A stretch of 64,000 nucleotides of DNA from Chromatiales bacterium (GCA_052388435.1 JBQTIC010000054.1:2739-66738), one strand, 5' to 3'; positions 39,606-64,000 are shown, counted from the first letter of the stretch. The notes: a model not told the origin generated them from the sequence alone. Made by a program: numbers and translations.

Positions 39606-39739
39606 CGTTACAGAGAGCTATCGAGCCGGTATGTCGCGTCCGGGCAAGGCGCGAGGCCGTGAGCGGCCCGGAGCATGCACGGCAGTATGTGAGGACCGCG
39701 AAGGAGCGAGTAAAACAGCATCGACGCGAAAGACCAGGC

Positions 39740-47645: not shown

Positions 47646-47799
47646 GGAAGCTCTGAATAAGCCCATCCTGGACTTCTCAGAGCACGCAAAGCAAAAAGCG
47701 TGGTTTTTGCGTTGCTTCATCTTCAACGGCTTGCAGCCTTCGAAGATGGCGGCACATCCCTGTGCCGCAGGAACCTCTGACTTAATCAGAGGTTCCTTA
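47642..47799. repeat. 158-bp MITE-like repeat, copy B (between convergent phaC and glnE)
   Basis: See copy A (25459-25616). Begins on the phaC TAG stop and ends 2 nt after the glnE stop, so it fills the whole convergent intergenic gap. Contains the 11-bp-stem palindrome GGAACCTCTGA/TCAGAGGTTCC, a plausible bidirectional terminator. Confidence 0.65.
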
Positions 47800-50764: not shown

Positions 50765-51478
50765 TCAGCGCTCCGACTGTTTTTCGAGGTCCTGAAGACG
50801 TTTCATGAGGAAGCGCTGCTCTGCGGGGTCCGTGACCTTGCCGTCTTCCAGCAGTCCGCCGATGAGGATCTTCGCCGCCTCGATCTCTCCCATGTCCTCC
50901 AAGACAAAGATATTCATTTGACGCGCCCATTTCGGCACCTGCGGTCCCCTGGCGTGGGTGGCGAGCGCGTCGGCGTACTTGAGCGCGAGCGCCAGATCGC
51001 CGATGCGGTGCCTGGCTACGTACACCGCGTGGGCGAGCCACTGCCAACGGCCGTTGGGGTTCTTGAGGAATTCGCGGTAGACGAAATCGAGCATCTGCCG
51101 CTGCTTCGTCGGCACCGGCACTTCGCCGTAGAGGCGGGCGGCCGCGAGCAGTGGGTATTCCGTGCGCTCATCGAGACTGCCGACGCGCTCCAGCCACGCC
51201 ACAACGCGCCCATAGTCAAGGTCCCGGAAGGGAATGCTCAGGCCCGGCGGGTTATCAAAGGCCTGCAGCCACAGCATGAGCGCCTGCGCGAGGACGATGC
51301 GATCCCCCGCTGCCAGTACCTGCAACACAGGCAGCGCGGGAGGAGCGGGCAGCGCCTCGGCGTGCGCCTCGGGCGCCGGGCGAACGTGGTGCCAGGCGCC
51401 CTGCATTAGCAGGCTCGCCACGAGCAACATCAGCGCGGCGCGCGGCACGGCGTGGATGGGACGTTCCCTGGCTGACAT
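50765..51478 (-). CDS. hypothetical secreted/periplasmic protein
   Basis: 237 aa, N-terminal signal-like segment (AALMLLVASLLMQGA), helical remainder. No family recognised. Co-oriented with the upstream membrane protein and with glnE. Confidence 0.45.
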   Translation of the reverse strand: MSARERPIHAVPRAALMLLVASLLMQGAWHHVRPAPEAHAEALPAPPALPVLQVLAAGDRIVLAQALMLWLQAFDNPPGLSIPFRDLDYGRVVAWLERVGSLDERTEYPLLAAARLYGEVPVPTKQRQMLDFVYREFLKNPNGRWQWLAHAVYVARHRIGDLALALKYADALATHARGPQVPKWARQMNIFVLEDMGEIEAAKILIGGLLEDGKVTDPAEQRFLMKRLQDLEKQSER

Positions 51479-51480
51479 AT

Positions 51481-52251
51481 CTAGAAATTCTTCCGGTAAA
51501 GATCAAAGAGTCCGGCGCCGATCAGGAGAGCGAGGTAGATGATTGTCTGCCCGAGGATCGGCGCAAGCGCCGCGGGGTTGCCGGTCCCGTAAACGAGCCA
51601 CTCGCTGGGGGTGTAGCGATACAGTTCCGGCAGCAGGTAGGCCAGACCATCCACCATCGCTGCAATGATCTTCTGCGACCAGGCATTGGGGTCGATTAGA
51701 GGTCCGTGTCCCATCAATTGGATCGCGTCGATGACGCGCCCGAGTACGTAGAACGCGGCCACCGCGCTCAGGGCGGCAGTGACCTGCGAGAAGGTGAACA
51801 TGCACAACAGGCTGAGGGCGGCGATGATCAGCATTTCGCAGTACAGCGACAATGCCCAGAGCATCGCCTGGGCGGGCGGCGCGTAGAACGCGACGACAGC
51901 GCCGAAGGCCATGGCACCGATCAGCGCCACCAGGCCATAGCCCATGACCTTTCCGCAATAATACACATGGCGCGGCAGCGCGAGGGAGAGAACGAGATCC
52001 GCGCCCTTGTCCGCCAGTTCGCGCGCCACGCTGCTCGCCACAAACAACCCGATGAGGAACACGCCCGCCGCGCGCAGGAACGCAGCCAGGAACGCTATCC
52101 TGATCGCCCCGCTTTCGGTCACGGCGGCGGCGGCGGCAACCTCGGCGAGCAGGAACGCGATCACAACCGTTACCGCCAGCAGTACGAGCAGCCGTCCCCG
52201 GACCGCCTCCAGGGCGGTGAAGATCGCGATGGTTCCCGCCTTATGCCACAT
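51481..52251 (-). CDS. hypothetical polytopic membrane protein (ABC-2-permease-like topology, 6-7 TM)
   Basis: 256 aa, almost entirely hydrophobic helices. No ATPase partner in the window. 2-nt gap to the next gene. Confidence 0.45.
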   Translation of the reverse strand: MWHKAGTIAIFTALEAVRGRLLVLLAVTVVIAFLLAEVAAAAAVTESGAIRIAFLAAFLRAAGVFLIGLFVASSVARELADKGADLVLSLALPRHVYYCGKVMGYGLVALIGAMAFGAVVAFYAPPAQAMLWALSLYCEMLIIAALSLLCMFTFSQVTAALSAVAAFYVLGRVIDAIQLMGHGPLIDPNAWSQKIIAAMVDGLAYLLPELYRYTPSEWLVYGTGNPAALAPILGQTIIYLALLIGAGLFDLYRKNF

Positions 52252-52342: not shown

Positions 52343-54127
52343 ATGGACGCTGACATAACAAAGCCCGCGCGCATACCCGCCCGATCAGCGCAGATTGTCC
52401 GTGTGCTGATCGTAGTGTTCAGCAAGTACGAGAATGTCGTGCTTGCCACCATGCTGCTCCTGCTGCACCTGTCGCTGTGGTGGGACTTCGCCGGCCCGCT
52501 GTCCCGATCGCTCATGCTCGCCCACCTGGGGCTCTTCTTCCTCTGGCAGCCGATCTGGCGGGGCGATCAGCGCCTCGATATGCACAGCGCTGTCCTCTTC
52601 TTTCTCTGCACGATCGGGTTTGTGGTGCTGCTGAACGGCTGGCTGTTCGTATGCTGGCTCATCCTGCTCATCGGCCTGGTGGGCGGCCGCTCGTTAAGTC
52701 AGACGAGAGAGCGCTACGTCTACATGCTGACGCTGTTCTTCCTGACCTCCGAGCTGCTCATCGGCGCCACGCCACTGCTGTTTGACACGGGCGGTCTGCC
52801 CGGCACGATAAACGATCTCTTTCGTTACGGCCTGCTCGCGATCCCGCCGGTCGTTGCCTTTATACCAGCCATGGCTTCGGGCACGCGTACGCGCTTTGCC
52901 GTCGACCTTCTGCGCGGAGTGACCACTTCGATGATGGCGGCCATCGTGGCCATGGGCAGTCTGATAACGATGTACCGGTCACAGGCCGACTACTCGGAGG
53001 CATTGTTCTGGGCGTCCCTTGTGCTTGCAGGCTTCCTGTTCGCCATCAGCTGGCTTCTTACGCCGGGGACAGGGGTCAGTCGCCTCGCGGAGGTGTGGGA
53101 GCGCTCCCTGCTCAACATCGGCACGCCGTTCGAGGAGTGGTTGGCCGACCTTGCCAAAGTCGCCGAGCAGCACCTCACGCCCAAACAGTTCTTTGAAGCG
53201 GCCATGCTGGCGCTGGTCAGGCTGCCGTGGGTGCGCGGCGTGGCGTGGAGTGGATCTGACCTGGCCGGGAGGCACGGAGATCGCACGGTGCACTTCATAG
53301 ATCTCAACGCCGCCGGTGTCACCGTGCTCCTGTTCGTGCCGCGATCACCGGGCCCTGCGCTGCTGCTGCACGCCAAACTGCTGGTGCAGCTGCTGGGGCA
53401 TTTGTACACGGCCAAGCAGCGCGAGCAGGAGCTCGCCAAACAGGCGCACCTGCAAGCCATCCATGAGACCGGGGCACGCGTCACCCACGATATTAAGAAT
53501 CTGCTGCAGTCCCTCCAGGCCATCACCGCCGTGCTGACCGAGGCACCGCTGCCGATCGGCGCCTCGGAACGGCGCCGTTCGGCGCGCGTGTTTCAGCTGA
53601 TCGAGCGCCAGATGCCGCTCATCACGCAACGCCTGCAGCTCGCGCTGGACAAGCTCCAGTCCCCGGAGAAAACGGTCCAGCAGGAGAGACGGTTGCGCGA
53701 ATGGTGGGAGTCGCTCAAGGTCCGCAATCATGACACCGGTATCGGCTTTAAGGATAGCATTACAAGCAACCCGCTCATCCCGGGCGATCTCTTCGACAGC
53801 GTCGTCGAAAACCTGCTTGAGAATGCGCGCCACAAGCGGGAGCTCGAACGGGATATCGAGATCGGAGTGATGCTCACCAGCAACGGGGGGGGTCTTCGGC
53901 TCGAAGTGACCGACACGGGGAGTGCTGTTCCAGCGGCGGTCGCGGAGGGCCTGCTGAAGCAGCCGGTCAATTCTGACACCGGATTGGGCATCGGGCTTTA
54001 TCAGGCCGCGCGGCAGGCCGAGATGGTCGGCTACACGCTCAGCCTGCGGACCAATATCCCCGGCAAAGTCTGTTTTGAGCTCTCGGCCACCCAGCCGGCC
54101 AAGGGCGCAGACACGATGCTCGGTTGA
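52343..54127 (+). CDS. sensor histidine kinase with large polytopic N-terminal membrane domain (PrsK-like architecture), orphan
   Basis: ~250 aa with 7-8 TM helices, a GAF-like linker, H-box ARVTHDIKNLLQSLQ, and HATPase N/G boxes (LENARHK..., DTGSAV..., GLGIGLY). No response-regulator gene adjacent. Confidence 0.7.
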   Translation: MDADITKPARIPARSAQIVRVLIVVFSKYENVVLATMLLLLHLSLWWDFAGPLSRSLMLAHLGLFFLWQPIWRGDQRLDMHSAVLFFLCTIGFVVLLNGWLFVCWLILLIGLVGGRSLSQTRERYVYMLTLFFLTSELLIGATPLLFDTGGLPGTINDLFRYGLLAIPPVVAFIPAMASGTRTRFAVDLLRGVTTSMMAAIVAMGSLITMYRSQADYSEALFWASLVLAGFLFAISWLLTPGTGVSRLAEVWERSLLNIGTPFEEWLADLAKVAEQHLTPKQFFEAAMLALVRLPWVRGVAWSGSDLAGRHGDRTVHFIDLNAAGVTVLLFVPRSPGPALLLHAKLLVQLLGHLYTAKQREQELAKQAHLQAIHETGARVTHDIKNLLQSLQAITAVLTEAPLPIGASERRRSARVFQLIERQMPLITQRLQLALDKLQSPEKTVQQERRLREWWESLKVRNHDTGIGFKDSITSNPLIPGDLFDSVVENLLENARHKRELERDIEIGVMLTSNGGGLRLEVTDTGSAVPAAVAEGLLKQPVNSDTGLGIGLYQAARQAEMVGYTLSLRTNIPGKVCFELSATQPAKGADTMLG

Positions 54128-54366: not shown

Positions 54367-55152
54367 TCAAGGTAGGCGCCCTGCCATCACCATTCGGTTC
54401 TTGAGAACGTTCGGCGAGATCCATGTCACGAGGTCGTCGAATTCCAGCGTGTCGTCCCGGCTGAAGCTCTTGGAGACAAACACCGCATCTGGATCCTCAT
54501 TTTCCTGTTCATGGCTGGAGAGAGTGCCGCCGATTGCCAGCGCAGCGTCATTGTGATTGCTGCCGCGCGAGAAAATCAACGCGGGCACTTGGTTAACCAC
54601 TGTCGCGCCGCCCGCAGCATCCAGAACCGTTATGTCACCGACAGAGCAAAGCTCGAATGCCACCGTGGCTGTTGCTGTACCGCAAGGAGCGGTGTTTGTT
54701 CCGGCCGCAAAGAGCGGCGTAACTCTGTAACGAAAGAAGCCGCGATAACCAGCCGCACCTCCCCATTCGTCTCGCTGCCCAACATTCAGGTCAACCCACG
54801 GCAGGTTTCCCGAAGCGGCCACGCAAACTGGCGGGGTTCCAGTTCGATCCTCCGTCCCATCGTCACCGACGGAATCCGGACAGGGAAGTCGCCCATTTGC
54901 AACGGCGAACCCGACCAGCGCTTCCTTGATGTTCTCCAGTTGACCCTGTGTCCTTTGCCGCTCCTGCGATTCGGTGCGAGTGCTCAACGGGCCAAGCAGG
55001 CCCGCGAGCAGCAAAGCAATGACCAGAAGAACGATGGCGAGCTCGACGAGAGTGAAGCCCCGCGAGGCCGAACGCGCACGCAAGCCTCGTTCGCAACTCC
55101 AGGCAACCCCACATGGTGCGCTCACCGGCGAACGGTTACGGCTGGCGCGCAA
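54367..55152 (-). CDS. type IV pilin-like / pseudopilin protein with prepilin cleavage-methylation motif
   Basis: ...LRARSASRG|FTLVELAIVLLVIALLLAGLLGPL is the canonical class III signal (G-1, F+1, E+5, hydrophobic helix). The ORF starts with TTG at 55152 (GAGGT RBS at 8 nt), giving an unusually long 32-aa leader. The alternative TTG at 55083 gives a typical 9-aa leader MRARSASRG. Mature protein has 4 Cys. Confidence 0.75.
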   Translation of the reverse strand: MRASRNRSPVSAPCGVAWSCERGLRARSASRGFTLVELAIVLLVIALLLAGLLGPLSTRTESQERQRTQGQLENIKEALVGFAVANGRLPCPDSVGDDGTEDRTGTPPVCVAASGNLPWVDLNVGQRDEWGGAAGYRGFFRYRVTPLFAAGTNTAPCGTATATVAFELCSVGDITVLDAAGGATVVNQVPALIFSRGSNHNDAALAIGGTLSSHEQENEDPDAVFVSKSFSRDDTLEFDDLVTWISPNVLKNRMVMAGRLP

Positions 55153-58100
55153 CGATTCGCACCTCGTCGTTGAATGTGTTCGTCACAGGCGGAAATGTGC
55201 CGCGCTCATACTCGCACGGGGCCCCCGGACAGGGAGCCGGCGGAGAAAATGGAGGCCCGATAACGGGAAGATCATTCTGGCCTTCAAAGTAGGCTCCCGA
55301 GACACCTGTCGTGCGATCCTGTGTTCCTACTGGGGGGCCGGCGGCGATCAGGAGGGCGCGGATCCTGTCATTGTTGGTCGCCAGGTCGGCGCCATCCCTG
55401 AGCACCAGGCAGTCCGTCCCGATGGTGCAGGATCCGGTTGAGCCGCTGGTCGGAACCTCCTGAGGAGACGCCGCCGCATAGATGAGTTGATGCCAGTTGT
55501 TGCGCACGAACCAAGGCGGCAGCTCGTGATAGATCCTGTACCTGTCGTTGGCGGCGAACGTGATGGAGCCGCCCGGCACATTCTTCACCGTTACCTGACT
55601 GGCTGGCCCGACGGACTCGACGCGGCCCTTCGAGCAACCGACCCCAAGCTTTTCGACCCAATCGCCGGGCCGCACTCCCAATTGAACGAAGTCTCTAGTG
55701 CTGTCGATAAGCTCCAATCCGGTTGCTCCAACCGCCGTCACGGCTCCGTCAAGCGGTGCAAAATCCATATGGATGTTGCCGGTACTCACGAAACCGCTGG
55801 TGCCCGCGGGTATGGACAGCGTCGCATTCCCAAGTTGCGTCCCGGCCACATCCACATCGGTAATCGTGACCGGAGGAATCGCCGGCATGGCTGGCGGTGG
55901 CTGCTCTGGCAGCGGTGCAAAAGCTGCTGGCGAACCGATTACGACGTCTCTCACTTTTGTGCCGGCCGAGTTGGCGAAGCTCACGGTGCCATTGTGCATA
56001 GGCCGGAAGGCATATTGCCGGGTCTCGATCAAACCGCTGCGTATGAGGTACTCATCGCCCGCGTTGAATGAATTGGACGCCCCGCCTGTTAGCGCAATGA
56101 CGGTAATCTGATTCGTGCCCACCGTTGCGACTCTCCCAATTGAACCGTCATCGAGGTTCCGAACAACATCGCCAGCGCGCACGCTGAGTGCCACAAAATC
56201 CTGACTGCTGTCCATCAGCGTCAGTCCGGCGCTGCCAGCGGTGGCGGCATTGGTAAGCTGATACTGCTGGCCTGCCACAAATGTAACGCCGCTCAGCAGG
56301 TCGACGATCAGGTGGCTGGGAGTCGGCAGACCGACGGTCTGGATCACACCCTTCAAGCCAGTGCTCAGGTTCTCGACATAGTCACCGGCATTGACCCCCA
56401 GCGCCAGGAAATCGACATTGGTGTCCTCGAGCAGCGGTCCGAGACTCCCAAGGGTCGCTGTGCCCGGCGGCGGCAATGGAAGTTCCCGGGTGGCGATACG
56501 GAGCCTGTAGCCGTCGTTTGCTGCAAAGGTAAGGCCAGATACTGTCAGAGTGGTAGGAGAAGTGACCGCGGTGACGAATCCGCTGATAACGCTAGTCTGG
56601 TTTTCCACTACATCACCGGGGTTCACTCCAAGCGCATTAAAGTCAGCCTCCGCATCCATCAGCGTCGTGCCAGCGCTGCCGGCAGTGGCCGTACGCGTAA
56701 AGTACGGCTCCGCAGCGGTACCCGAACAGTCCACGCTGTCCGTCGCAGTCTGCGCCAAGGGACATTGGCCGGCAGTCGGGAAGTTCGCCGGATAGTCCAT
56801 GGACCACAAGCAGATTCCATTCGCTGACAGGACCGGGACCGGGTCCCGCGTGGGAGGCACGGCCACAGAGTCCAATAAGGGACGAGGCAAGGTCTTCTGT
56901 ATCGTCGCCCGCAGCCCCGGCACGTAATTGGCGACGGCTGTTACAACGGGAGGCGGCAATGCGGGCAGGAAGGCGGCGGTGACGACCGCGCCGTTTGCCT
57001 CCCTGATGTCCCAGTCAAGCGTGAAGCCCGTTCGAAACGCCTCGCCCGCCACGCCTGCGGGAGGAGGCAGCTGAACCATGGCATGGTATGGCAGATGTCC
57101 GTCGCGCGCAGTGCCTGACAGAATGTCACCGTTGTTGCGCGGGATCTGATAGGCGTCTCCCGCATCGAAGTCGTTCTCGGCGCCGTCGCGTAATGCTGCC
57201 ACCGTTAACGTGGTTGCGGCGACAGCGGTGATCACGCCCTTGGAGCCGTCCGTTACATTCTGAACGATGTCGTCAACGCGAACGCCCAACGTGACGAAAT
57301 CCTTGGTCGGGTCTTGCAGTTGAGTGATGCTGCTCGCGGCCGCCGTGCCAGCGATCATTGGTGCGGCCATGGTCGCCGCGCGGGGAGCGGCGAAAGGACT
57401 GGACCAGGGATACCGCCCATCGTCGGGTGTCGATGGTGTTAGATTTTCAGCAACCTCACGGTACTGGCTTACGGAATTTGCCGCCTCCCCGAGGACGCGT
57501 TTTTCCATCTCGCCCATGAAGTCGCGGCGGCTAATGACCAGCACCTGATCGTTGAAGTCGCCCGCGCCGCTGGTAACAAAGTCGGGGTCAGGGTCACTGT
57601 TTTCGCCTTCGAGGTAATGAGAGACGACATTACTTGGTCTCAACTGATCGTTGAAGCTGGGTCCGGGCGCCAGTAGCACGGCAACAATATCGCCGCTTCC
57701 GTCAATAGTCAGTTGACCCGGAGTCTCGCTGTTCAAGGGAAAGGTCTTCGGATTGTTCCGGAAGTTGCCCGACAGCGCATACCACAGCCTCTCGCCGCTA
57801 CTGTCGCGCACATCGTGCAGCCCCAGAAACTCCCAAGGCAGCCTTCCTACGCGAACTGTTTCAGCAAGAGTTCCGCAGGGCGGATTCGGCGATCCGTCAT
57901 TATCCGTGTCCGGACATGGCAGAAAGCCCGGTCCTGCGAGAAAGTCCGTTGTTGCTGGATTGTCAGGATAGGAAGCCGCGTAGCCGATCAGCGCCTCTCT
58001 GGCGGCTTCCAATGCGGCGGCCGACCGTTCCCTGCGGTACCCCTCACTGGCGGCCGCGTTCAACTGGGTCAGCAGCAAGGAAGAGCTTGCCACCACCAGA

Positions 58101-58255
58101 ATCAGCACTATGAGTATGAGTACCACGCCCTGCTGCCGATGCGGCCCATTGACCGACACGGTCGGCGCCAAGGTCACGGACGGGGGAAGGCATACGTCAC
58201 CCGATCTACCACCGCCTTTTGAAGGCGACTTCTTACCGGGACTGCTGATAGCCAT
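55136..58255 (-). CDS. giant (1039 aa) signal-anchored repeat protein of the pilus cluster (candidate PilY1/MshQ-like tip or assembly factor)
   Basis: ATG 58255. Single N-terminal hydrophobic segment (QQGVVLILIVLILVVASSSLLL) without prepilin motif. Five tandem ~65-aa repeats (aa ~307-372, 523-586, 602-666, 669-738, 842-909; nt ~55531-57337) with core L-x-D-x(3-5)-DF-x(2)-LGV-x(2)-GD-x-V-x-N...G-x-V...[LI]TV...[AN][AG][DQ]-x-Y-x-[IL]. Cys-containing N-terminal globular region (FLPCPDTDNDGSPNPPCG), Pro-rich linkers. Confidence 0.6.
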   Translation of the reverse strand: MAISSPGKKSPSKGGGRSGDVCLPPSVTLAPTVSVNGPHRQQGVVLILIVLILVVASSSLLLTQLNAAASEGYRRERSAAALEAAREALIGYAASYPDNPATTDFLAGPGFLPCPDTDNDGSPNPPCGTLAETVRVGRLPWEFLGLHDVRDSSGERLWYALSGNFRNNPKTFPLNSETPGQLTIDGSGDIVAVLLAPGPSFNDQLRPSNVVSHYLEGENSDPDPDFVTSGAGDFNDQVLVISRRDFMGEMEKRVLGEAANSVSQYREVAENLTPSTPDDGRYPWSSPFAAPRAATMAAPMIAGTAAASSITQLQDPTKDFVTLGVRVDDIVQNVTDGSKGVITAVAATTLTVAALRDGAENDFDAGDAYQIPRNNGDILSGTARDGHLPYHAMVQLPPPAGVAGEAFRTGFTLDWDIREANGAVVTAAFLPALPPPVVTAVANYVPGLRATIQKTLPRPLLDSVAVPPTRDPVPVLSANGICLWSMDYPANFPTAGQCPLAQTATDSVDCSGTAAEPYFTRTATAGSAGTTLMDAEADFNALGVNPGDVVENQTSVISGFVTAVTSPTTLTVSGLTFAANDGYRLRIATRELPLPPPGTATLGSLGPLLEDTNVDFLALGVNAGDYVENLSTGLKGVIQTVGLPTPSHLIVDLLSGVTFVAGQQYQLTNAATAGSAGLTLMDSSQDFVALSVRAGDVVRNLDDGSIGRVATVGTNQITVIALTGGASNSFNAGDEYLIRSGLIETRQYAFRPMHNGTVSFANSAGTKVRDVVIGSPAAFAPLPEQPPPAMPAIPPVTITDVDVAGTQLGNATLSIPAGTSGFVSTGNIHMDFAPLDGAVTAVGATGLELIDSTRDFVQLGVRPGDWVEKLGVGCSKGRVESVGPASQVTVKNVPGGSITFAANDRYRIYHELPPWFVRNNWHQLIYAAASPQEVPTSGSTGSCTIGTDCLVLRDGADLATNNDRIRALLIAAGPPVGTQDRTTGVSGAYFEGQNDLPVIGPPFSPPAPCPGAPCEYERGTFPPVTNTFNDEVRIVARQP

Positions 58256-58706
58256 CGACGATGGTGTTGGTGGCGGGGTCGTAGGTCTGGCCGGGCTTGA
58301 GCCGCACGTTGGGCAGATGCTCCGGGGTGTCGATGGGCACGGCTACGCTGCGCGGCCGATCGATGCGGATATGCTCATCGCCGAAGTCGCCCTCGTAAGT
58401 ATTCTGGCCGTTGACCCAGACCGTGCCGTCGCCTCGCGAGCGCAGCACCACTCCGTTGACGGTGATGGGCGGCACCTGCGGGGGCGGAAGGACTTCTTCG
58501 GGCGGCGGCGGCTCGACGACGGTTACGGGAGAGGGTTGCACGGGGGGCGCAGGCGGCCTCGGCGGCGCGGCGCGCAGGCGCTCGAGCATCTCCCGTTCCT
58601 CCGGTGTCATGAACAGCCGTCCCAGTTCCTGCGCCTGCATGGACGCCGTGGCTAGGCTCAGGAACAAGCCGATGGCGACGGTGGTTGCGCTTACATGGCG
58701 TTTCAT
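58233..58706 (-). CDS. PilP/MshK-like periplasmic assembly protein (signal peptide, Pro-rich linker, C-terminal beta-domain)
   Basis: Start set at ATG 58706 (MKRHVSATTVAIGLFLSLATASMQAQE = signal peptide). Then PPRPPAPPVQPSPVTVVEPPPPEEVLPPPQVPP linker, then ~60-aa beta-rich domain (ITVNGVVLRSRGDGTVWVNG...). Position after a PilO-like gene. ORF-track 5' extension to 58865 overlaps the upstream gene. Confidence 0.5.
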   Translation of the reverse strand: MKRHVSATTVAIGLFLSLATASMQAQELGRLFMTPEEREMLERLRAAPPRPPAPPVQPSPVTVVEPPPPEEVLPPPQVPPITVNGVVLRSRGDGTVWVNGQNTYEGDFGDEHIRIDRPRSVAVPIDTPEHLPNVRLKPGQTYDPATNTIVDGYQQSR

Positions 58707-58713
58707 GGCGGCC

Positions 58714-59340
58714 CTACCTGAGCACCAGGCTCTTGTCAGGCAGGTTGACCGTGTACCATTCCAGCTCGCACCCCGCGCTGATGTTCTGGGCCTTGGGGTT
58801 CGGCTCAATCGCGCCCTGCTTGCGGGTGAAAGTGCAACGGGAGATGCTGTACAGCCCGGCGGCATGGCGATTCAGTTCATCGAGCAGGGTGGCGAAGTCG
58901 TATTCGTGCAGCAGACCGAGGTCGAGCCGCATCCTGCTTTCGTAGACCTGGAAATGGCCGGTGTTGGTGCCTACCAGATACGGCGGGTTGGCCGCCTCCT
59001 GGGCGTTGATCTGGTAGCGCAACTCTGGCAACTTTATCGATGCACCGGCCCGGCGCAACGTCTCCAGCCAATTCAAGCGATTCTCCTCGCCGATCACGCC
59101 TCTGTTGTAAAGGTCGATAAACCGCGGGTATTGTTCGCGGATGATGCGGTCTTCATCATCGACAGCCAGATAGCGCTGGCTCGTGTCCTTAAACTGCGCG
59201 TGGTTGCGCTGGTAAGCCGCCTCCTCCTTCGTCTTGAAGTAGTGGCTGTACCACATCATCGCGGCGCTCACCACGACGCAGACCACCAGCGCGATAAAGG
59301 CGTCGCTGAGGAAGCGGAAATCGAGATCAAGCTTTTTCAT
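58714..59340 (-). CDS. PilO/GspM/MshJ-like bitopic inner-membrane pilus assembly protein
   Basis: 208 aa, short cytoplasmic N-terminus, one TM (FIALVVCVVVSAAMMWY), then coiled-coil plus periplasmic domain. Operon position after the PilMN-like gene. Confidence 0.5.
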   Translation of the reverse strand: MKKLDLDFRFLSDAFIALVVCVVVSAAMMWYSHYFKTKEEAAYQRNHAQFKDTSQRYLAVDDEDRIIREQYPRFIDLYNRGVIGEENRLNWLETLRRAGASIKLPELRYQINAQEAANPPYLVGTNTGHFQVYESRMRLDLGLLHEYDFATLLDELNRHAAGLYSISRCTFTRKQGAIEPNPKAQNISAGCELEWYTVNLPDKSLVLR

Positions 59341-60961
59341 CGGCTATTCCCATCACCAGCCGCACGAGAAAATCAGCCCTCTCGCCCGTCACCGGCGCGT
59401 CGGACGCGCCCCGCAGATTCGCGCTGGAGCTGACATCAAGCGGCTGCCGGATCACCTCTACCCGGTACACGTTTTCCTGGTTCCTCAATGCTTCCTCGAA
59501 GCGATTGACTGTCGCGATGGCGCCGCGGTAGTTGCCGTCGAAGGGCTCGATGTGTCCCTGCACCTCGGCAACGTGATAATAGAGGTACGACTTGGGAGGT
59601 TCGCTCTGCAACACGCCAGGATCGGCGGGACCGCGCGTTGCCTGCTCCGCGCCGGCGGTGGTTTCCGCGGCGTCGAGCTGCGCGTTGGGATCCGGGCTGG
59701 CAATCCACTCGATCCTGTCGAGCTCCACCGTCTGGAAGCCCCCCAGTGCGAGGCTCACTGTGCGCATCATTTCGATCGGCCTGGCCCTGTGACGCGCTAG
59801 CGCGTCAACAATGTCCACTGCCGACTTGATGTCGCGGGGCTCGACGGCGGTCGGCGGCAGACGTTTGCGGGCGATCTCATAACGTGCCTGGTAGTACGCC
59901 GCCTTCTGCTGCGAGTCGAAGGCCTGATGCCGCAGCGACACGCCCTCGATGAAGTTGAAGCCGCTCCAGACCGAGCCGCCCAGCAGCAGCAGCGCCGCCG
60001 CGGCCATCATCCCGACCCGCGTCTTGAAAAGCCGGTAGTAGCGGGTCTGATGCTTGGGCGCGTATTGGTTGACCGGCTTCTCATCGAGCAGCAGGTGCGC
60101 AAAAAGCACGTCGCTGTATGGCGTCGTCAGTGCGCCGCTGATCCCCAGGCGCCTGCCGACCTCGGCGACATTCACCAGATGGAAACGCACCTGCTCGACC
60201 GTTCGCGTCTGGTGCTTGAGTTCGCCGAGCAGATCGCCACCGGTGACGACGAAGATGTCGAGCGGCGCGTCGCGGTTCAGCAGCCGCAGGCTGACGAGAT
60301 AGCGCCGGAATTTATCGAGCTCGCCCAGCACGTGCGGCGCGTAAGGCACCGAGCCGTAACGCGGCATCTTCGCCAGACGGCTCACCTTCAACTCCTGGTC
60401 ACGGAAGAAGGTCTGCCTGAGGCCGCTTGCGCCGTGCAGCGTCACCAGCAGCAGATTCGACGACTTAGTGCCCAGCTTGTCGAGCAGCAGCTCACTGATG
60501 ACTGGCAGCGAGTAGATGCCGGTGACAGGCACCTTGTTGTCGCTGAACAGGCGGATGAGCGGGTCGAGCTGATCCGGGTTGGTGAGTGCCGTCAGCAGCA
60601 GACGGTCGTCTTTGCGCCCCTCGACCTCGCGGCCCTGAACCTGCGCATACTGGTAAGGTGTGTTACGGAACAACCGCAACAGCTTGCGCTGAATGATCGC
60701 GCCGCGGTCGCGACCAAAGACGTGCGGAATGGTGTCCTGGCGGTATTCCTCTTCGACAACGTCGACGACGAGATAGACGGGGACGTTGGGCGATTCCTCC
60801 AGGTAATGCGCGAACTGCCCGAACCCCACATCGGTGGCCTCAAAAAGAAACCCGTCCGCGAGTCCGCCGCTGCGCCAGTGATAAACGGCGATCTTGTCGC
60901 CAGTGATATAAATGGCGCGGCGATCGAAGAGATCAAACCTTGATCTTAGAGATGAGATCAT
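59327..60961 (-). CDS. PilM-PilN fusion-like (MshI/GspL-type) assembly protein
   Basis: 544 aa: ~315-aa cytoplasmic domain, single TM (VGMMAAAALLLLGGSVWSGF), ~200-aa periplasmic domain. ATG 60961 overlaps the 3' end of the platform gene by 29 nt. Confidence 0.5.
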   Translation of the reverse strand: MISSLRSRFDLFDRRAIYITGDKIAVYHWRSGGLADGFLFEATDVGFGQFAHYLEESPNVPVYLVVDVVEEEYRQDTIPHVFGRDRGAIIQRKLLRLFRNTPYQYAQVQGREVEGRKDDRLLLTALTNPDQLDPLIRLFSDNKVPVTGIYSLPVISELLLDKLGTKSSNLLLVTLHGASGLRQTFFRDQELKVSRLAKMPRYGSVPYAPHVLGELDKFRRYLVSLRLLNRDAPLDIFVVTGGDLLGELKHQTRTVEQVRFHLVNVAEVGRRLGISGALTTPYSDVLFAHLLLDEKPVNQYAPKHQTRYYRLFKTRVGMMAAAALLLLGGSVWSGFNFIEGVSLRHQAFDSQQKAAYYQARYEIARKRLPPTAVEPRDIKSAVDIVDALARHRARPIEMMRTVSLALGGFQTVELDRIEWIASPDPNAQLDAAETTAGAEQATRGPADPGVLQSEPPKSYLYYHVAEVQGHIEPFDGNYRGAIATVNRFEEALRNQENVYRVEVIRQPLDVSSSANLRGASDAPVTGERADFLVRLVMGIADEKA

Positions 60962-62138
60962 AGATGGGTCCCAACACCGATAGCATCACCCACATCAGCA
61001 GCCCGCCGAGCAAGATGGTTATGCCCGGCCCGAGGATCTTCTGCAGCCGCTCCACGGACTCCTTGACGTCGCGGGTGTAAAAATACCCCACGTTGGCCAG
61101 CGCCGTCTCTAGTGAGCCGGTATTCTCGCCGACGCGCAGCATGCGCAGGACCAGCGGCGGAAAGAGCTCCGACTCTCCGAAGCTCGCGGCGATACCCGAC
61201 CCGTCGCCGATTCTGCGGCCCGCCGCCAGCACCGCCTCCTCGACGGCCTTGTTGTCCACCACGTCGGCGCTCAGACGAATACTGTCTAGCACGGTAATGC
61301 CGGAAGCGTACATCAGGGCAAAGTTGTTCGTGAAACGCGTCAAAATAAGTTTCTTGAGTATCGGCCCAATGACCGGCCAGCGCAGTTTCCAAGCGTCCCA
61401 GTTGCGACGGAATACCGGACTGACCTGCGCGCCGACCTTGATGGCCACGGCAGCCACAACCGGCGCCAGGAGAAAAAGGTACCAGTACTCCTGGAAGGCG
61501 CCCGACACCGTGGTGAGCAGCTTGGTGTGCCAGGGCAGCTCCCCGCCCATGGTCTTGACGAACTTGAGCAGCTCCGGCACGACATTGACCATCAGAACAA
61601 AGACCGCGATCGTTACGACCACGAGCACGATGCTGGGATAAATAAGCAAGGTCTTGACGTGGGACGCCTGCTCGTCCTGCCATTTCAGGTTCTCCGCGAT
61701 CTGGCGCAGGACCTCCGGGAGCTGACCGGCCTCCTCGCCGGCGCGGATCAGGTTCACCATCGTGTCCCCGAACACGTACGGGAAGTCGGCCATCGATTGC
61801 GAGAGGTTCTTGCCGCCCTGGATGGTTTCGATCATGACCGCAATGACGTCACGCAGTCGCGGGTTCTCCATGGTGTCGCGCAGATCGGCCAGGCCCTCCA
61901 GCATCGGCACGCCGGCGCGCAGGAGCTGCTCCATGTGAAAGCAGAAGGTGATCAGATCGACCCGGCGGATGGTGCGGCCGCCGGCGGCGCGGCTGCGGCC
62001 CCTGATTTGCCGGTAGCTGATGAGATCGAGACCCATGCGGCTCAGGCGCGACTCCAGATCGCCGACGTTGACGGCATCCAGTCGGCTGCGCTTGACGGTG
62101 CCGTCACGAGCTATCGCTTTGTAGCGATACACCTCCAT
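60933..62138 (-). CDS. type II secretion / type IV pilus platform protein (GspF/PilC/MshG family)
   Basis: 401 aa, duplicated T2SSF domain architecture, 3 TM, conserved ...LLRAGVPMLEGL... and ...GESELFPPLVLRMLRVGENTGSLETAL... segments. Confidence 0.85.
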   Translation of the reverse strand: MEVYRYKAIARDGTVKRSRLDAVNVGDLESRLSRMGLDLISYRQIRGRSRAAGGRTIRRVDLITFCFHMEQLLRAGVPMLEGLADLRDTMENPRLRDVIAVMIETIQGGKNLSQSMADFPYVFGDTMVNLIRAGEEAGQLPEVLRQIAENLKWQDEQASHVKTLLIYPSIVLVVVTIAVFVLMVNVVPELLKFVKTMGGELPWHTKLLTTVSGAFQEYWYLFLLAPVVAAVAIKVGAQVSPVFRRNWDAWKLRWPVIGPILKKLILTRFTNNFALMYASGITVLDSIRLSADVVDNKAVEEAVLAAGRRIGDGSGIAASFGESELFPPLVLRMLRVGENTGSLETALANVGYFYTRDVKESVERLQKILGPGITILLGGLLMWVMLSVLGPIYDLISKIKV

Positions 62139-63844
62139 CAGGCGATCCTTTCCGTGAGATCCACCACCCGCGACACCTCATCGATACTGGTTACGCCGTC
62201 CAGGACGCGTTTCGCCGCGGCGTCCGCAAGCGTGGTGAAGCCCTTGCCGATTACCGCTGTGCTCAGCTCCTTCAGCCTCGCGCCGGCGGCGATGAGCTGA
62301 TCCATATCGCGGTCGAACTTCAGCAGCTCCATCGCCGCCGTGCGTCCGCGATAGCCTTGGTTATCACAATGGATGCAGCCCTTGGCCCGGTAGATGAGCG
62401 GCGACGCCCCACCCTGGTTGATGCCGAGCACGCGGCGTTCCAGTTCGCTCGGCTCGTAGGCCTCCTTGCACTGGTTGCAGAGCTTGCGCACCAGCCGCTG
62501 CGCGATAATGCCGATGATGTTGCCAGACATGATGTCCGGGCGGATGCCTAGGTCGAGCAGACGCGGAACCGCCCCAAGGGCGCTGTTGGTGTGCAGGGTT
62601 GCGAATACCTGGTGGCCGGTCATAGCGGCGCGGAACGCCATGGACGCTGTCTCCTCGTCGCGGATCTCGCCGATGAGGATGATGTCAGGATCCTGCCGCA
62701 GGATCGCCCGCACGCCACTTGCAAAATCCAGCCGCACGGCCTCGTTGATGGAGGTCTGGCGGATCTGGCCCATCGGATATTCGACGGGATCCTCCAGTGT
62801 CATGATATTGACCGACTCCGTATTAAGATGGCTGAGCACCGAATAGAGGGAGGTCGTTTTGCCGCTTCCGGTCGGACCGGTCACCAGAATGATGCCCTCC
62901 GGACGCGCCACCATGAGCTTGAGAACGTTGAGCACTTCCTCTTCGAGGCCCAGTTGTTCCAACTCCACGAGGCCCTTCTGCCGGTCGAGGATACGCAGCA
63001 CGATGTTCTCGCCGTTCACTGTCGGCATGGTGGAGACGCGGAAGTCGATCTGGCGGCCGGAAAGCGACAGCGAGATGCGGCCGTCCTGCGGCGCGCGCGT
63101 TTCGGCGATATCCATGCCCGACATGACCTTTACACGCACCGCGATCGCCGACCAGTAGTTCCTGTGCAGGCTGCGGATCTGCCGCAACACGCCATCGATG
63201 CGGTAGCGGAACCGCAGGAACCCCTGCTCCGGCTCGAAGTGAATGTCGGAAGCGCTGCGCTTGACCGCGTCTGCCAACAGCGCGTTGACCAGCCGCACCA
63301 CGGGTTGGCTGTATTCGCCGCTATCGGCCTCGAGGCTCGCGTAGTCGATCTCGCCGGTCTCAATCTCCTGCAGGATCCCGTCGACGGACAGTTCAAAGCC
63401 ATAGAACTGATCGATGGCCTTCTCGATGTCGGCCTCGGCCGCAAGCAGCGGCACGACCTCCACATCCCCACCCAGCAGGGCGTTGATCTGATCGATGGTG
63501 ACGACGTTGAAAGTATCCGCCATCGCAACAGTCAGGCGATTGCGGTTCAGCTCGTAGGTCAGCGGCAGGATGCGGTGGCGGCGGGCGATATCCTTGGGGA
63601 TGAGGCGTACCGCCTCGCTGTCGACAACCACCTGGGTGAGGTCGACGCTCTGCTGACCGAGCGCGCCGCCCAGAACGTCGAGGATGATCGCCTCGGTGGC
63701 AAAACCGAGACGGACGAGGATCTTGCCTAGGTGTTCCTTGTCCTTCTTCTGCTCGGTGAGCGCAATGCGGATCTGGTCCTGGCTGACAACGCCCTTCTGC
63801 ACCAGCAACTCCCCAATGCGGAGCGGCTGTTTGGGGACATTCAC
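62138..63844 (-). CDS. GspE/PilB-family secretion ATPase with MshEN-type (c-di-GMP-binding) N-terminal domain
   Basis: 568 aa. N-terminus has two tandem MshEN-like half-motifs (RIGELLVQKGVVSQDQIRIALTEQ and HLGKILVRLGFATEAIILDVLGGALG). Then T2SSE N-domain, Walker A GPTGSGKTT, Asp box, Walker B ILIGEIRDEETA, His box, tetracysteine CNQC...CIHC. Confidence 0.85.
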   Translation of the reverse strand: MNVPKQPLRIGELLVQKGVVSQDQIRIALTEQKKDKEHLGKILVRLGFATEAIILDVLGGALGQQSVDLTQVVVDSEAVRLIPKDIARRHRILPLTYELNRNRLTVAMADTFNVVTIDQINALLGGDVEVVPLLAAEADIEKAIDQFYGFELSVDGILQEIETGEIDYASLEADSGEYSQPVVRLVNALLADAVKRSASDIHFEPEQGFLRFRYRIDGVLRQIRSLHRNYWSAIAVRVKVMSGMDIAETRAPQDGRISLSLSGRQIDFRVSTMPTVNGENIVLRILDRQKGLVELEQLGLEEEVLNVLKLMVARPEGIILVTGPTGSGKTTSLYSVLSHLNTESVNIMTLEDPVEYPMGQIRQTSINEAVRLDFASGVRAILRQDPDIILIGEIRDEETASMAFRAAMTGHQVFATLHTNSALGAVPRLLDLGIRPDIMSGNIIGIIAQRLVRKLCNQCKEAYEPSELERRVLGINQGGASPLIYRAKGCIHCDNQGYRGRTAAMELLKFDRDMDQLIAAGARLKELSTAVIGKGFTTLADAAAKRVLDGVTSIDEVSRVVDLTERIA

Positions 63845-64000
63845 GGTGGGCTTCCGCTTGCCGCGGCGAGCGCCTGGATCCGGGAGTTGGCCTGCGCGGA
63901 CGCAAACCTGGGAGGACGCGTGGCCGCAAGCTGAACCGCCTTGCGGTAATAGTCCAGCGCCGGAGCGCTCTGGCCGAGATGATCGAGGCTCACCGCGAGG
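63845..64000 (-). CDS. TPR-repeat protein (MshN-like position), 5' part beyond window
   Basis: Minus-strand frame ...LAVSLDHLGQSAPALDYYRKAVQLAATRPPRFASAQANSRIQALAAASGSPP* with TGA immediately followed by the ATPase ATG (TGAATG). TPR-like helical content. Confidence 0.4.

What the first reader, a model, noticed from the sequence alone, without database searches (positions are those of the whole stretch)
54367..64000. MSHA-like type IVa pilus / T2SS-like cluster with non-canonical gene order and no secretin in view
Nine co-oriented, mostly overlapping minus-strand genes: TPR protein, MshE-type GspE ATPase, GspF platform, PilMN-like (544 aa), PilO-like, PilP-like, a 1039-aa repeat protein, and a prepilin. 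Composition matches the Vibrio MSHA system (MshN-E-G plus MshI-J-K equivalents), but the order is N-E-G-I-J-K-[giant]-[pilin]. The canonical MSHA order is I-J-K-L-M-N-E-G-F-pilins-O-P-Q. No secretin (MshL/PilQ), MshM ATPase, major pilin or prepilin peptidase is present in the ~10 kb. This looks like a rearranged or minimal pilus-like machine. It may use the giant repeat protein instead of a conventional fibre, or it may be a surface-attachment organelle of an undescribed subtype.
Basis: partly seen in the sequence, partly recalled or inferred. Interest (0 to 1): 0.75.

Follow-up and report, generated by a model that had tools for sequence, protein, structure and literature searches.

The report
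MSHA-like pilus machine, conserved unusual variant
The window holds most of a conserved operon for a type IV pilus-like surface-filament machine related to the Vibrio MSHA pilus; its 'missing' secretin lies just past the window edge, but the fixed non-canonical gene order, four component families with no database model and a giant repeat-bearing pilin make it an apparently undescribed variant common in uncultured Gammaproteobacteria.

Summary
The genes are real. On the minus strand the window has a TPR gene tail, an MshE/GspE ATPase, a GspF platform, a 544-aa PilM/GspL-fold protein, two small membrane or periplasmic proteins, a 1039-aa protein and a prepilin.

"No secretin" is a window-edge effect. 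A 5.1-kb contig that matches the window (2 mismatches in 3088 nt) shows the full TPR gene and then a secretin C-terminus beyond the edge. In relatives the upstream genes are a sigma54 response regulator, an MshM/GspA-like AAA ATPase and an MshL-type secretin.

The order RR-M-L-N-E-G-[MN]-[O]-[P]-giant-pilin, followed by a convergent kinase and two ABC-2-like membrane genes, is nearly invariant in 80 species-level genomes, all MAGs or single-cell assemblies. It differs from Vibrio mshIJKLMNEGF/BACDOPQ.

The giant protein is itself pilin-like. It has a GspK/PilX-type leader without Glu5, a 53-residue alpha-1 helix and a domain homologous to the neighbouring pilin. It carries five ~70-aa beta-barrel repeats (0-9 in homologues).

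Most relatives also have a separate pilin gene behind a sigma54-type promoter, probably the major pilin. The window lacks it.

Verdict: an MSHA-related type IV filament system of a new, widespread variant. The tip-adhesin function is inferred.

The parts
63841..64000 (-). 3' end (last 53 codons) of a 599-aa membrane-anchored TPR protein, the MshN-position gene. The rest lies beyond the window edge.
   Evidence: L001 matches the window (2 mismatches in 3088 nt) and gives the full ORF. Pfam TPR_16/TPR_2/TPR_19 hit residues ~410-575. Its stop overlaps the ATPase start by 4 nt.
62138..63844 (-). Assembly ATPase of the GspE/PilB/MshE family (568 aa) with an N-terminal MshEN-type domain.
   Evidence: Pfam T2SSE 1e-129 and MshEN 2e-18. 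NCBIfam GspE 540 bits and PilB 532 bits (both below the equivalog cutoffs); c-di-GMP motif domain NF053729 57.6 bits against a cutoff of 38. PDB: PilB 1.6e-129, GspE 2.6e-115. MshEN motif 1 is canonical; motif 2 starts with His and ends with Ala.
60933..62138 (-). Inner-membrane platform protein (GspF/PilC/MshG family, 401 aa).
   Evidence: Pfam T2SSF 1.9e-47, two copies. NCBIfam GspF 280 bits, PilC 242 bits. Three hydrophobic segments.
59327..60961 (-). 544-aa bitopic protein: a cytoplasmic actin-like domain (PilM/GspL-cyto fold), a TM helix (~316-334) and a periplasmic alpha/beta domain. It is a PilM-PilN / GspL / MshI-type alignment component and belongs to a family with no Pfam or NCBIfam model.
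   Evidence: No family hits. AF2 pLDDT 82.9. Foldseek PDB: PilM 4.6e-11, FtsA, EpsL/GspL cytoplasmic domain 1.8e-7. There are 2879 cluster representatives at E<=1e-3.
58714..59340 (-). 208-aa protein with one N-terminal TM segment (10-28) and a conserved periplasmic part with two invariant Cys. It sits in the PilO/GspM/MshJ position. The homology is unproven.
   Evidence: Present in 43 of 43 loci with enough downstream sequence. No Pfam, PDB-sequence or hhalign support. Topology.
58233..58706 (-). 157-aa exported protein: a signal peptide, the conserved motif LGRLF-TP-ER, a Pro-rich linker and a beta-rich C-domain (TVNG-V-RS-G--T-WVNG ... LKPGQ-YDP). It sits in the PilP/GspC-HR/MshK position. 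The homology is only hinted at.
   Evidence: Alignment A4. hhalign against E. coli GspC aligns to HR residues 85-157 with E 0.025. T2SSB E ~0.04 in 2 of 31 members. Present in 43 of 43 loci.
55136..58255 (-). Giant modular pilin-like protein (1039 aa; 1011 aa from NCBI's start at 58171). It has a GspK/PilX-type leader ...QQG|VVLILIVL without Glu5, an alpha-1 helix at residues 43-95, a pilin-like domain at ~70-245, five beta-barrel repeats and a C-terminal module that repeats part of the pilin domain.
57140..57358 (-). Repeat 1 of the ~70-aa beta-barrel module (giant protein residues 300-372).
56495..56704 (-). Repeat 2 (residues 518-587).
56255..56464 (-). Repeat 3 (residues 598-667).
56036..56254 (-). 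Repeat 4 (residues 668-740).
55526..55753 (-). Repeat 5 (residues 835-910).
54367..55083 (-). Prepilin (238 aa): leader MRARSASRG|FTLVE, the conserved motif NGRLPCPD and the C-terminus ...FDDLVTWISP-VL-NRMV-AGRLP. It is a paralogue of the giant's pilin domain and a likely minor or priming pilin.
   Evidence: Pfam N_methyl 8.6e-6. NCBIfam IV_pilin_GFxxxE and the GspG N-terminus 3e-8. NCBI start confirmed by P0241. It is the only class-III signal peptide in the window.
52343..54127 (+). Convergent polytopic sensor histidine kinase (594 aa, at least 5 TM segments). It is conserved next to the cluster and is the probable partner of the sigma54 response regulator that lies upstream of the cluster in relatives.
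   Evidence: Pfam HATPase_c 5e-7. TM segments. Present in 37 of 43 loci. The L002 orthologue weakly matches PrsK.
50765..52251 (-). Two conserved membrane-protein genes (256 aa with weak ABC-2 permease similarity, and 237 aa) that travel with the cluster. Their role is unknown.
   Evidence: Pfam ABC2_membrane_3 3.7e-4, below cutoff. Present in 37 and 36 of 43 loci. In L090 they directly follow the pilin on the same strand and an ABC ATPase gene flanks the cluster.

Best explanation
The window carries the distal two-thirds of a single operon for an MSHA-related type IV filament (TFF) machine.

**Shown**
- An MshE-type hexameric ATPase and a GspF-type platform are encoded in the window.
- They are followed by a PilM-N/GspL-fold bitopic protein and two small partner proteins.
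- An MshL-type secretin is preceded by an MshM/GspA-type AAA ATPase and followed by a TPR protein. These genes lie just beyond the window edge or in relatives.

**Inferred**
- The ATPase and platform polymerise pilin subunits from the inner membrane.
- The 544-aa protein and its two partners form the alignment complex that links the platform to the secretin.
- The two co-operonic pilin-type proteins, the 238-aa 'LPCPD' prepilin and the giant GspK/PilX-like modular pilin, form the priming or tip complex. This places the giant's five beta-barrel repeats at the filament tip as a ligand-binding or adhesive module.
- The shaft is built from a separate major pilin. In most relatives this gene lies a few kb downstream behind a sigma54-type promoter. 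It is presumably switched on by the locus-encoded sigma54 response regulator and polytopic kinase, as with PilS/PilR/pilA. In this genome it must be encoded outside the window.
- The prepilin peptidase, and any retraction ATPase, are supplied in trans, as in MSH loci.
- c-di-GMP control through the MshEN domain is possible but uncertain, because the second binding motif is degenerate.
For: - **Domain and fold assignments:**
- **Secretin beyond the edge:**
- **Full locus in an 81%-identical relative:**
- **Invariant order in 80 species-level genomes:** SEC/E/F in 49 of 49 loci, RR/AAA/TPR in 45 of 49, and O/P/giant/pilin in 43 of 43. The same core is present in a distant member.
- **Translational coupling:** start/stop overlaps between adjacent genes.
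- **Giant protein is pilin-like:** homology to the adjacent prepilin at 2e-8, a conserved G|AALL... leader lacking Glu5, and an alpha-1 helix at 43-95 in a confident model.
- **Repeat number varies from 0 to 9 between homologues**, as expected for an exposed module.
- **Literature on bulky pilins:** modular pilins can only be accommodated at filament tips, and GspK is such a case (PMC8179133).
- **Second pilin in relatives:** found in 27 of 35 loci. A -24/-12 element lies at a fixed distance in 28 of 34 genes, against 0.07 expected.
- **Literature on MSH loci:** they characteristically lack a prepilin peptidase and are single-locus (PMC6668835).
Against: - No experiment exists for any member, and all 80 related genomes are MAGs or single-cell assemblies.
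- The PilO-like and PilP-like roles are positional only.
- The giant model has no pilin among its top structural matches, so its pilin nature rests on sequence features and the alpha-1 helix.
- The window's own genome shows no major-pilin gene or sigma54 promoter within 64 kb.
- The upstream RR, AAA ATPase and secretin N-terminus are inferred from relatives, not seen for this strain.
- MshEN motif 2 fails even the relaxed published motif in 76 of 76 family members.
- No sigma54 element was found upstream of the main operon.
- Adhesion as the output is inference only.
Confidence: 0.65

Rival explanations
1. It is a type II secretion-like exporter. A short periplasmic pseudopilus made of the 238-aa GspG-like subunit and capped by the GspK-like giant pushes a substrate through the secretin. 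That substrate could be an exoprotein, or material handled by the linked ABC-2 transporter.
For: - The ATPase and platform score slightly higher on the GspE and GspF models than on PilB and PilC.
- The pilin N-terminus best matches GspG (3e-8).
- The giant's leader lacks Glu5, like GspK.
- A GspA-like AAA ATPase is present, with a weak T2SSB/GspC-HR resemblance in the P-like protein.
- The pilin is the last gene of a long operon, which suggests low abundance.
- ABC-2 genes are conserved alongside the cluster.
Against: - There are no GspC (PDZ), GspH, GspI, GspJ or GspM matches.
- The secretin's best model is MshL, not GspD (245.8 against 160 bits).
- The 544-aa protein's top fold hits are PilM rather than GspL.
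- The pilins are ~240 aa, much larger than GspG.
- A conserved, separately promoted sigma54-dependent pilin in relatives looks like a pilA-type major pilin.
- A 1039-aa cap with 5-9 exposed repeats is hard to reconcile with a periplasmic piston.
Confidence: 0.2
2. The giant repeat protein is not a filament subunit. It is the cargo or the fibre substitute: a surface-anchored adhesin delivered or displayed by the machine in place of a conventional pilus.
For: - The window holds no major pilin.
- The giant has no structural match to known pilins.
- Its repeat array is variable, as in adhesins.
Against: - It has a conserved class-III-like leader and a 53-residue alpha-1 helix.
- It is paralogous to the adjacent prepilin.
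- Core-only homologues (~600 aa, 0 repeats) keep the pilin-like N-terminal and C-terminal modules.
- Most relatives do have an additional conserved pilin.
Confidence: 0.1
3. It is a decaying remnant or half of a standard MSHA or T2SS locus and has no function of its own.
For: - In some relatives IS elements interrupt the secretin or separate F from MN, and the giant gene is split (L004, L005, L007).
Against: - In the window all ORFs are intact and coupled.
- The same 11-gene order is kept at 38-64% identity of the 544-aa marker across 80 species.
- The 544-aa family alone has 1252 cluster representatives at E<=1e-30.
Confidence: 0.03

Closest known systems
Vibrio cholerae MSHA type IVa pilus (mshIJKLMNEGF / mshBACDOPQ)
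   Same: - An MshE-type ATPase with an MshEN domain, and a GspF-family platform.
- An MshL-type secretin (with Secretin_N_2), an ExeA/GspA-like AAA ATPase (MshM) and a TPR protein (MshN).
- A GspL-like bitopic protein (MshI) followed by small partners.
- A very large protein of unknown fold next to the pilins (MshQ in Vibrio).
- Single-locus organisation with no prepilin peptidase in the locus (PMC4624765; PMC6668835).
   Different: - The order is M-L-N-E-G-I'-J'-K'-giant-pilin instead of I-J-K-L-M-N-E-G-F then B-A-C-D-O-P-Q. M and L are swapped, and the alignment genes come after the motor.
- There is no MshF.
- Only two pilin-type genes lie in the operon, against six or more in Vibrio.
- The 544-, 208-, 157- and 1039-aa proteins have no recognisable sequence similarity to any model, so the link to MshI is by fold only.
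- A sigma54 regulator and kinase pair and ABC-2 genes are attached.
- MshEN motif 2 is degenerate.
Type II secretion system (Gsp/Eps/Xcp)
   Same: - GspE- and GspF-family motor and platform.
- A GspL-like fused cytoplasmic and periplasmic protein.
- A secretin.
- A GspA-like ATPase.
- A GspK-like large pilin lacking Glu5.
   Different: - No GspC (PDZ), GspH, GspI, GspJ or GspM is recognisable.
- The secretin scores better as MshL than as GspD.
- The pilins are much larger than their Gsp counterparts.
- No known substrate genes are present.
T4aP PilMNOPQ alignment complex with PilS-PilR/sigma54 control of pilA (Pseudomonas, Myxococcus), and the Myxococcus pilGHI ABC genes
   Same: - A PilM-fold domain gives the best structural match.
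- The M-N-O-P-like gene series.
- A polytopic kinase plus a sigma54 enhancer-binding response regulator in the locus.
- In relatives, a pilin gene behind a -24/-12 promoter.
- ABC-transporter genes embedded in a pilus cluster, as with pilGHI (PMC6060248).
   Different: - PilM and PilN are fused here.
- The secretin precedes rather than follows the alignment genes.
- There is no PilT/PilU, PilD, FimU-PilVWXE or PilY1 in the locus.
- The components are not detected by the PilM, PilN, PilO or PilP profiles.
Modular (bulky) minor pilins: S. sanguinis PilB, ETEC CofB, T2SS GspK
   Same: A pilin module carries extra domains. These subunits are expected at the filament tip, where they mediate ligand binding (PMC8179133).
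   Different: - Much larger: 1039 aa, against an 860-plus-aa protein cited as the extreme case in that survey.
- The extra modules are five copies of an unannotated ~70-aa beta-barrel plus a partial second pilin-like module.
- The repeat number varies from 0 to 9 among orthologues.

Membership tests
Type IV filament (TFF) superfamily | GspE/PilB-family assembly ATPase | tested here: met
   T2SSE 1e-129; PilB and GspE PDB hits at 1e-129 and 1e-115.
Type IV filament (TFF) superfamily | GspF/PilC-family polytopic platform protein | tested here: met
   T2SSF in two copies, 1.9e-47; GspF model 280 bits.
Type IV filament (TFF) superfamily | Subunit with a class III signal peptide (G|FxxxE plus a hydrophobic alpha-1N) | tested here: met
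   N_methyl and TIGR02532 on the 238-aa protein. The giant protein has the Glu5-less variant.
Type IV filament (TFF) superfamily | Prepilin peptidase available | not testable with these tools
   None is present in the window or in the related loci inspected. The rest of the genome is not available. MSH loci normally lack one (PMC6668835).
MSH (MSHA-type) system, MacSyFinder TFF-SF definition: mandatory mshA, mshE, mshG, mshL, mshM | mshE: ATPase with an MshEN c-di-GMP-binding domain (two 24-residue motifs with a 5-residue spacer) | tested here: inconclusive
   MshEN Pfam 2e-18 and NF053729 above its cutoff. Motif 1 and the spacer are canonical. Motif 2 has His at position 1 and Ala/Val at position 24 in 76 of 76 relatives, so it fails the relaxed motif of PMC5013675.
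MSH (MSHA-type) system, MacSyFinder TFF-SF definition: mandatory mshA, mshE, mshG, mshL, mshM | mshL: MshL-type secretin | tested here: inconclusive
   For this strain only the C-terminal 128 aa is seen (Secretin 3.8e-21). The orthologue in L002 scores 245.8 bits on TIGR02519 MshL, just below the 250.2 cutoff. MshL is still clearly the best model (GspD 160 bits, PilQ 109 bits).
MSH (MSHA-type) system, MacSyFinder TFF-SF definition: mandatory mshA, mshE, mshG, mshL, mshM | mshM: ExeA/GspA-like AAA ATPase in the locus | tested here: met
   Seen in relatives only: AAA_22, and pepcterm_ATPase 201 bits (below cutoff), in 45 of 49 loci. Not visible for this strain.
MSH (MSHA-type) system, MacSyFinder TFF-SF definition: mandatory mshA, mshE, mshG, mshL, mshM | mshA major pilin and the mshB/C/D/O/P minor pilin set | tested here: not met
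   There is only one canonical prepilin plus the giant in the operon. The candidate major pilin (pil2) is present only in relatives and outside the operon. MacSyFinder's own profiles could not be run.
MSH (MSHA-type) system, MacSyFinder TFF-SF definition: mandatory mshA, mshE, mshG, mshL, mshM | Canonical gene order mshIJKLMNEGF-BACDOPQ (V. cholerae, PMC4624765) | tested here: not met
   The order is RR-M-L-N-E-G-MN-O-P-giant-pilin in the window plus L001, and in 80 relatives.
Type II secretion system | GspC (HR plus PDZ), GspM and the pseudopilin set GspG/H/I/J/K | tested here: not met
   No Pfam or NCBIfam hits to these families beyond the generic pilin N-terminus. hhalign against E. coli GspM and GspB is negative, and against the GspC HR region gives E 0.025 only.
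T4aP PilMNOP alignment subcomplex | PilM actin-like ATP-binding fold joined to a PilN-type TM and periplasmic domain | tested here: met
   Met at the fold level only: PilM 4.6e-11, TM-score to target 0.49-0.58. There is no sequence-profile match.
T4aP PilMNOP alignment subcomplex | PilO and PilP homologues | tested here: inconclusive
   Position and topology fit. No profile or PDB-sequence similarity was found. No structure prediction quota was left.

The most novel reading that the evidence does not exclude
This may be a distinct, so far undescribed subtype of the type IV filament superfamily. It would be an MSH-related clade, widespread in uncultured soil, sediment and groundwater Gammaproteobacteria: 312 species-level genomes hit, and about 2900 50%-identity clusters of the marker protein. 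Its proposed defining features are:
- a fixed RR-M-L-N-E-G-MN-O-P operon;
- a two-member priming complex, a 'LPCPD' pilin plus a giant modular GspK-like pilin with a variable array of a new beta-barrel repeat, in place of the usual four or five minor pilins;
- a PilSR-like sigma54 circuit driving a separate major pilin;
- an associated ABC-2 transporter.
Probability: 0.45. Interest if true: 0.6.

Novelty: new variant of a known kind. Interest (0 to 1): 0.5.

Why it matters
- **A new branch to study.** Type IV filaments are classified into a handful of experimentally anchored types. A conserved, abundant variant whose alignment proteins and tip pilin escape all current profiles would be annotated as 'hypothetical' or 'generic'. 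It therefore goes uncounted in surveys of adhesion and secretion potential in environmental Gammaproteobacteria.
- **Priming with fewer pilins.** It offers a natural test of how few minor pilins suffice to prime a filament: two, against four or five in T4aP and T2SS.
- **An extreme modular pilin.** The giant subunit shows modular-pilin evolution with a variable repeat array.
- **Practical lesson for the scan.** The 'missing secretin' was a window-edge artefact.

Tried and rejected
1. **Sequence-profile links** of the 544-, 208-, 157- and 1039-aa proteins to Pfam, NCBIfam and PDB sequences gave nothing significant.
2. **hhalign tests.** The O-like family was compared with E. coli GspM and HofO and with the periplasmic part of the 544-aa family. 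The P-like family was compared with E. coli GspB. All were negative. P-like against GspC gave only E 0.025 on the HR region.
4. **Sigma54 promoter upstream of the secretin or main operon.** No conserved element was found in relatives, and none is present in the window. The promoter turned up only upstream of the second pilin of relatives.
5. **Exact-sequence look-up of the window's own contig** beyond the edge failed for the 544-aa protein. The ATPase look-up gave the 5-kb Logan contig that solved the edge question.
6. **Plasmid collection:** tblastn found no homologue of the marker protein. The window context is core chromosome (nuo, pgi, glgB, phaC, glnE), so a mobile-island origin was rejected.
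7. **Names and organisms for distant family members:** none are recorded.
8. **Literature searches** for this architecture found no description. Absence from the searchable open-access library is not proof of novelty.
9. **A PEP-CTERM/XrtA connection** was considered because of below-cutoff hits to the PrsR, PrsK and pepcterm_ATPase models. It was rejected because no exosortase or EPS genes are present and the cluster is a complete TFF machine.

Full report
**Observation.** The ORF scan confirms a run of co-oriented, tightly packed minus-strand genes between 54367 and the window end.
- The 568-aa product (62138-63844) is a GspE/PilB/MshE-family ATPase: T2SSE 1e-129, MshEN 2e-18, and the MshE-related c-di-GMP motif domain at 57.6 bits against a cutoff of 38.
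- The 401-aa product (60933-62138) is a GspF-family platform protein.
- The last gene is a prepilin with G|FTLVE. NCBI's 238-aa start at 55083 matches a database entry exactly.
- The 544-, 208-, 157- (210-aa ORF) and 1039-aa products have no Pfam or NCBIfam match at all.
- Only the last 53 codons of the TPR gene are in the window, so there are eight genes, not nine.
- A six-frame scan finds just one class-III signal peptide in the whole 64 kb.

**The window edge.** An exact-protein look-up of the ATPase returned a 5.1-kb contig (L001). It matches the window over 3088 nt with 2 mismatches and extends 2047 nt beyond coordinate 64000. It shows the complete 599-aa TPR protein. Eighteen nucleotides upstream of that gene lies the C-terminal 128 residues of a secretin (Pfam Secretin 3.8e-21).

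The window derives from a 67.6-kb contig of a Chromatiales MAG. In an 81%-identical relative (L002, a 297-kb contig) the full locus reads as follows:
- a sigma54 response regulator (483 aa);
- an AAA_22 ATPase (397 aa);
- a secretin (559 aa);
- a TPR protein, the ATPase and the platform;
- proteins of 545, 208 and 156 aa;
- a 1040-aa protein and a 256-aa prepilin;
- then a convergent histidine kinase, two ABC-2-like membrane genes and glnE. The window shows the same kinase, membrane genes and glnE.

The L002 secretin's best model is MshL: 245.8 bits, just under the 250.2 cutoff, against GspD at 160 and PilQ at 109. The AAA protein is MshM/GspA-like (pepcterm_ATPase model, 201 bits, below cutoff).

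**Conservation.** A degenerate-pattern scan of one genome per GTDB species found 312 genomes encoding a relative of the 544-aa protein. The best 80 are all uncultured Gammaproteobacteria MAGs or single-cell assemblies. A few are labelled otherwise, which probably reflects mis-binning.

Mapping fourteen reference proteins onto these loci gives one order throughout: RR-AAA-SEC-TPR-E-F-MN-O-P-GIANT-PILIN, then HK(-), ABC2a, ABC2b.

| Loci considered | Genes found |
|---|---|
| 49 loci with at least 9.5 kb upstream | SEC, E and F in 49; RR, AAA and TPR in 45 |
| 43 loci with at least 9.5 kb downstream | O, P, GIANT and PILIN in 43; HK and ABC2a in 37; ABC2b in 36 |

The marker protein is 38-64% identical across these loci. 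A full HMM search of 1.84 billion cluster representatives finds 2879 relatives (1252 at E<=1e-30). A distant member (L090) keeps the same core without the regulator pair.

The V. cholerae MSHA locus is mshI-J-K-L-M-N-E-G-F followed by mshB-A-C-D-O-P-Q (PMC4624765). The architecture here is a conserved alternative, not a chance rearrangement.

**The unannotated components.**
- *544-aa protein.* The AF2 model (pLDDT 82.9) has an N-terminal actin-like domain. Its best PDB matches are PilM (4.6e-11), then FtsA and the cytoplasmic domain of EpsL/GspL (1.8e-7). A long TM helix and a periplasmic alpha/beta domain follow. This is the PilM-PilN fusion / GspL / MshI design.
- *208-aa protein.* It has one N-terminal TM segment.
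- *157-aa protein.* It has a signal peptide, a conserved LGRLF-TP-ER motif, a proline-rich linker and a beta-rich C-domain.
- Their PilO-like and PilP-like labels fit position and topology. They could not be supported by Pfam, PDB-sequence or hhalign comparisons. The only hint is P-like against the E. coli GspC HR region at E 0.025, plus two T2SSB hits at E ~0.04.

**The giant protein.**
- Residues 70-242 are homologous to residues 60-246 of the adjacent prepilin ORF (2e-8), sharing the EAL-GYA...G-LPCPD and ...EGEN-D-D-F...F(N/D)D-V motifs.
- Across 40 homologues the N-terminus is ...(R/Q)xG|AALLAFMLVLIVGSS-LL-S-LN. This is a class-III-like leader lacking Glu5, as in GspK and PilX by my recollection of those families.
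- The AF2 model (pLDDT 81.4, pTM 0.76) starts with a 53-residue helix (43-95), the hallmark pilin alpha-1.
- Five ~70-aa repeats (300-372, 518-587, 598-667, 668-740, 835-910) are 44-51% identical to each other.
- The C-terminal ~75 residues repeat part of the N-terminal pilin-like domain (2e-5).
- Homologues carry 0 to 9 repeats. The ~600-aa forms are core-only.
- Fold searches find no significant whole-protein match. The repeats resemble small EF-Tu-domain-2 / F1-N-terminal-type barrels and domains of phage tail proteins.
- Bulky modular pilins are expected to sit at filament tips, and GspK is a precedent (PMC8179133).

**Regulation and the missing major pilin.**
- In 27 of 35 related loci with at least 5 kb after the operon there is a second prepilin of ~225-256 aa. 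Its N-terminus is almost invariant: Q-G|FTLVE[IM]AIVLVIIGLLLGGILKGQELITSARVRN.
- Twenty-eight of 34 such genes have a -24/-12 element (TGGC[AG][CT]-N6-TGC) 60-100 nt upstream of the Gly codon. From the motif's density in 2.86 Mb, 0.07 would be expected. No other cluster gene shows enrichment.
- Together with the sigma54 enhancer-binding regulator and the polytopic kinase (at least 5 TM segments), this mirrors PilS/PilR/sigma54 control of pilA.
- The window has neither this pilin nor such a promoter. In this lineage glnE directly follows the membrane genes, so the shaft pilin must lie elsewhere.
- MshEN motif 1 (RIGELLVQKGVVSQDQIRIALTEQ) and the 5-residue spacer are canonical. Motif 2 begins with His and ends with Ala or Val in all 76 relatives examined, so it fails even the relaxed published motif (PMC5013675). 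c-di-GMP control is therefore an open question.

**Interpretation.** The best-supported reading (about 0.65) is an MSHA-related type IV filament machine. Its operon encodes secretin-assembly factors, the secretin, the motor, the platform, a fused alignment protein with two partners, and a two-pilin priming or tip complex whose giant member displays a variable beta-barrel array. The shaft pilin is separately transcribed under sigma54 control, and the peptidase is provided in trans, as is usual for MSH loci (PMC6668835). The domain and fold assignments, the synteny and the promoter are shown. The tip location, adhesion and the regulator-to-pilin link are inferred.

A T2SS-like exporter remains possible (about 0.2). 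The 'giant protein instead of a fibre' idea (about 0.1) and a decaying remnant (about 0.03) are disfavoured.

**Novelty.** No paper in the searchable library describes this architecture. All four special components are annotated 'hypothetical protein' where a source gives any name; JGI calls a few of the giant proteins a PulG pseudopilin. It is a new variant of a known kind: clearly a TFF machine nearest to MSH, but failing MSH's pilin set and gene order. It has its own conserved features.

Interest is moderate (0.5). It is useful for annotation and for understanding minor-pilin priming and modular pilins, but it is not conceptually new.

Noticed in passing
Related loci, e.g. L007:20195-20923, L014:20689-21420, L022:19084-19797, L090:17793-18482 (not in the window): A second, highly conserved prepilin ('pil2', ~225-256 aa, ending ...CNA[VL]YLY) lies 2-5 kb downstream of the operon in 27 of 35 loci. 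28 of 34 copies carry a sigma54-type -24/-12 element at a fixed distance, against 0.07 expected. It is the probable major pilin, under control of the locus's sigma54 regulator. It is absent from the window.
   Followed up: yes
window 63670-63820 (ATPase residues 9-61): The first MshEN c-di-GMP-binding motif is canonical. The second systematically has His in place of Arg at position 1 and Ala or Val in place of Gln at position 24, in 76 of 76 family members. Binding may be altered or lost.
   Followed up: partly
window 50765-52251 (-); L090:1208-1921 and 15887-17626: Two membrane-protein genes (one weakly ABC-2 permease-like) accompany the cluster in ~85% of loci. In some loci an ABC ATPase gene is adjacent. 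This recalls the pilGHI ABC genes of the Myxococcus T4aP cluster. Their role is unknown.
   Followed up: partly
L004:2289-5285, L005:1211-4207 and 8805-9848, L007:2703-5546 and 12725-14455: In some relatives IS/transposase genes interrupt the secretin or sit between the platform gene and the 544-aa gene, and the giant gene is split in two. The system is therefore being lost in some lineages.
   Followed up: no
window 27776-41000: A complex I (nuo) operon: three Proton_antipo_M subunits plus NuoG- and NuoF-like proteins. It coincides with the strong positive AT skew (0.16-0.23) seen at 28-36 kb. This probably reflects minus-strand membrane-protein codon usage and is not an anomaly.
   Followed up: partly
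window 841-3267, 9584-12220, 15930-17825, 22261-24006, 45636-47645, 47797-50691: The neighbourhood is housekeeping chromosome: a spermidine-synthase-domain protein, a MacB/FtsX-type permease, a glycogen-branching-type amylase, phosphoglucose isomerase, PhaC and GlnE. The pilus cluster is therefore not on an obvious mobile island.
   Followed up: partly
L037, L054, L060, L065, L075 (record titles): Contigs carrying this gammaproteobacterial cluster sit in MAGs labelled Hydrogenophaga intermedia, Planctomycetota, Klebsiella pneumoniae, Enterobacteriaceae and Zixiibacteriota. This is probably mis-binning or mislabelling rather than true distribution.
   Followed up: no
L090:12847-13326: A distant member of the system has an extra 159-aa ORF, with no family match, between the P-like gene and the giant gene. 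It lacks the regulator and kinase pair.
   Followed up: no
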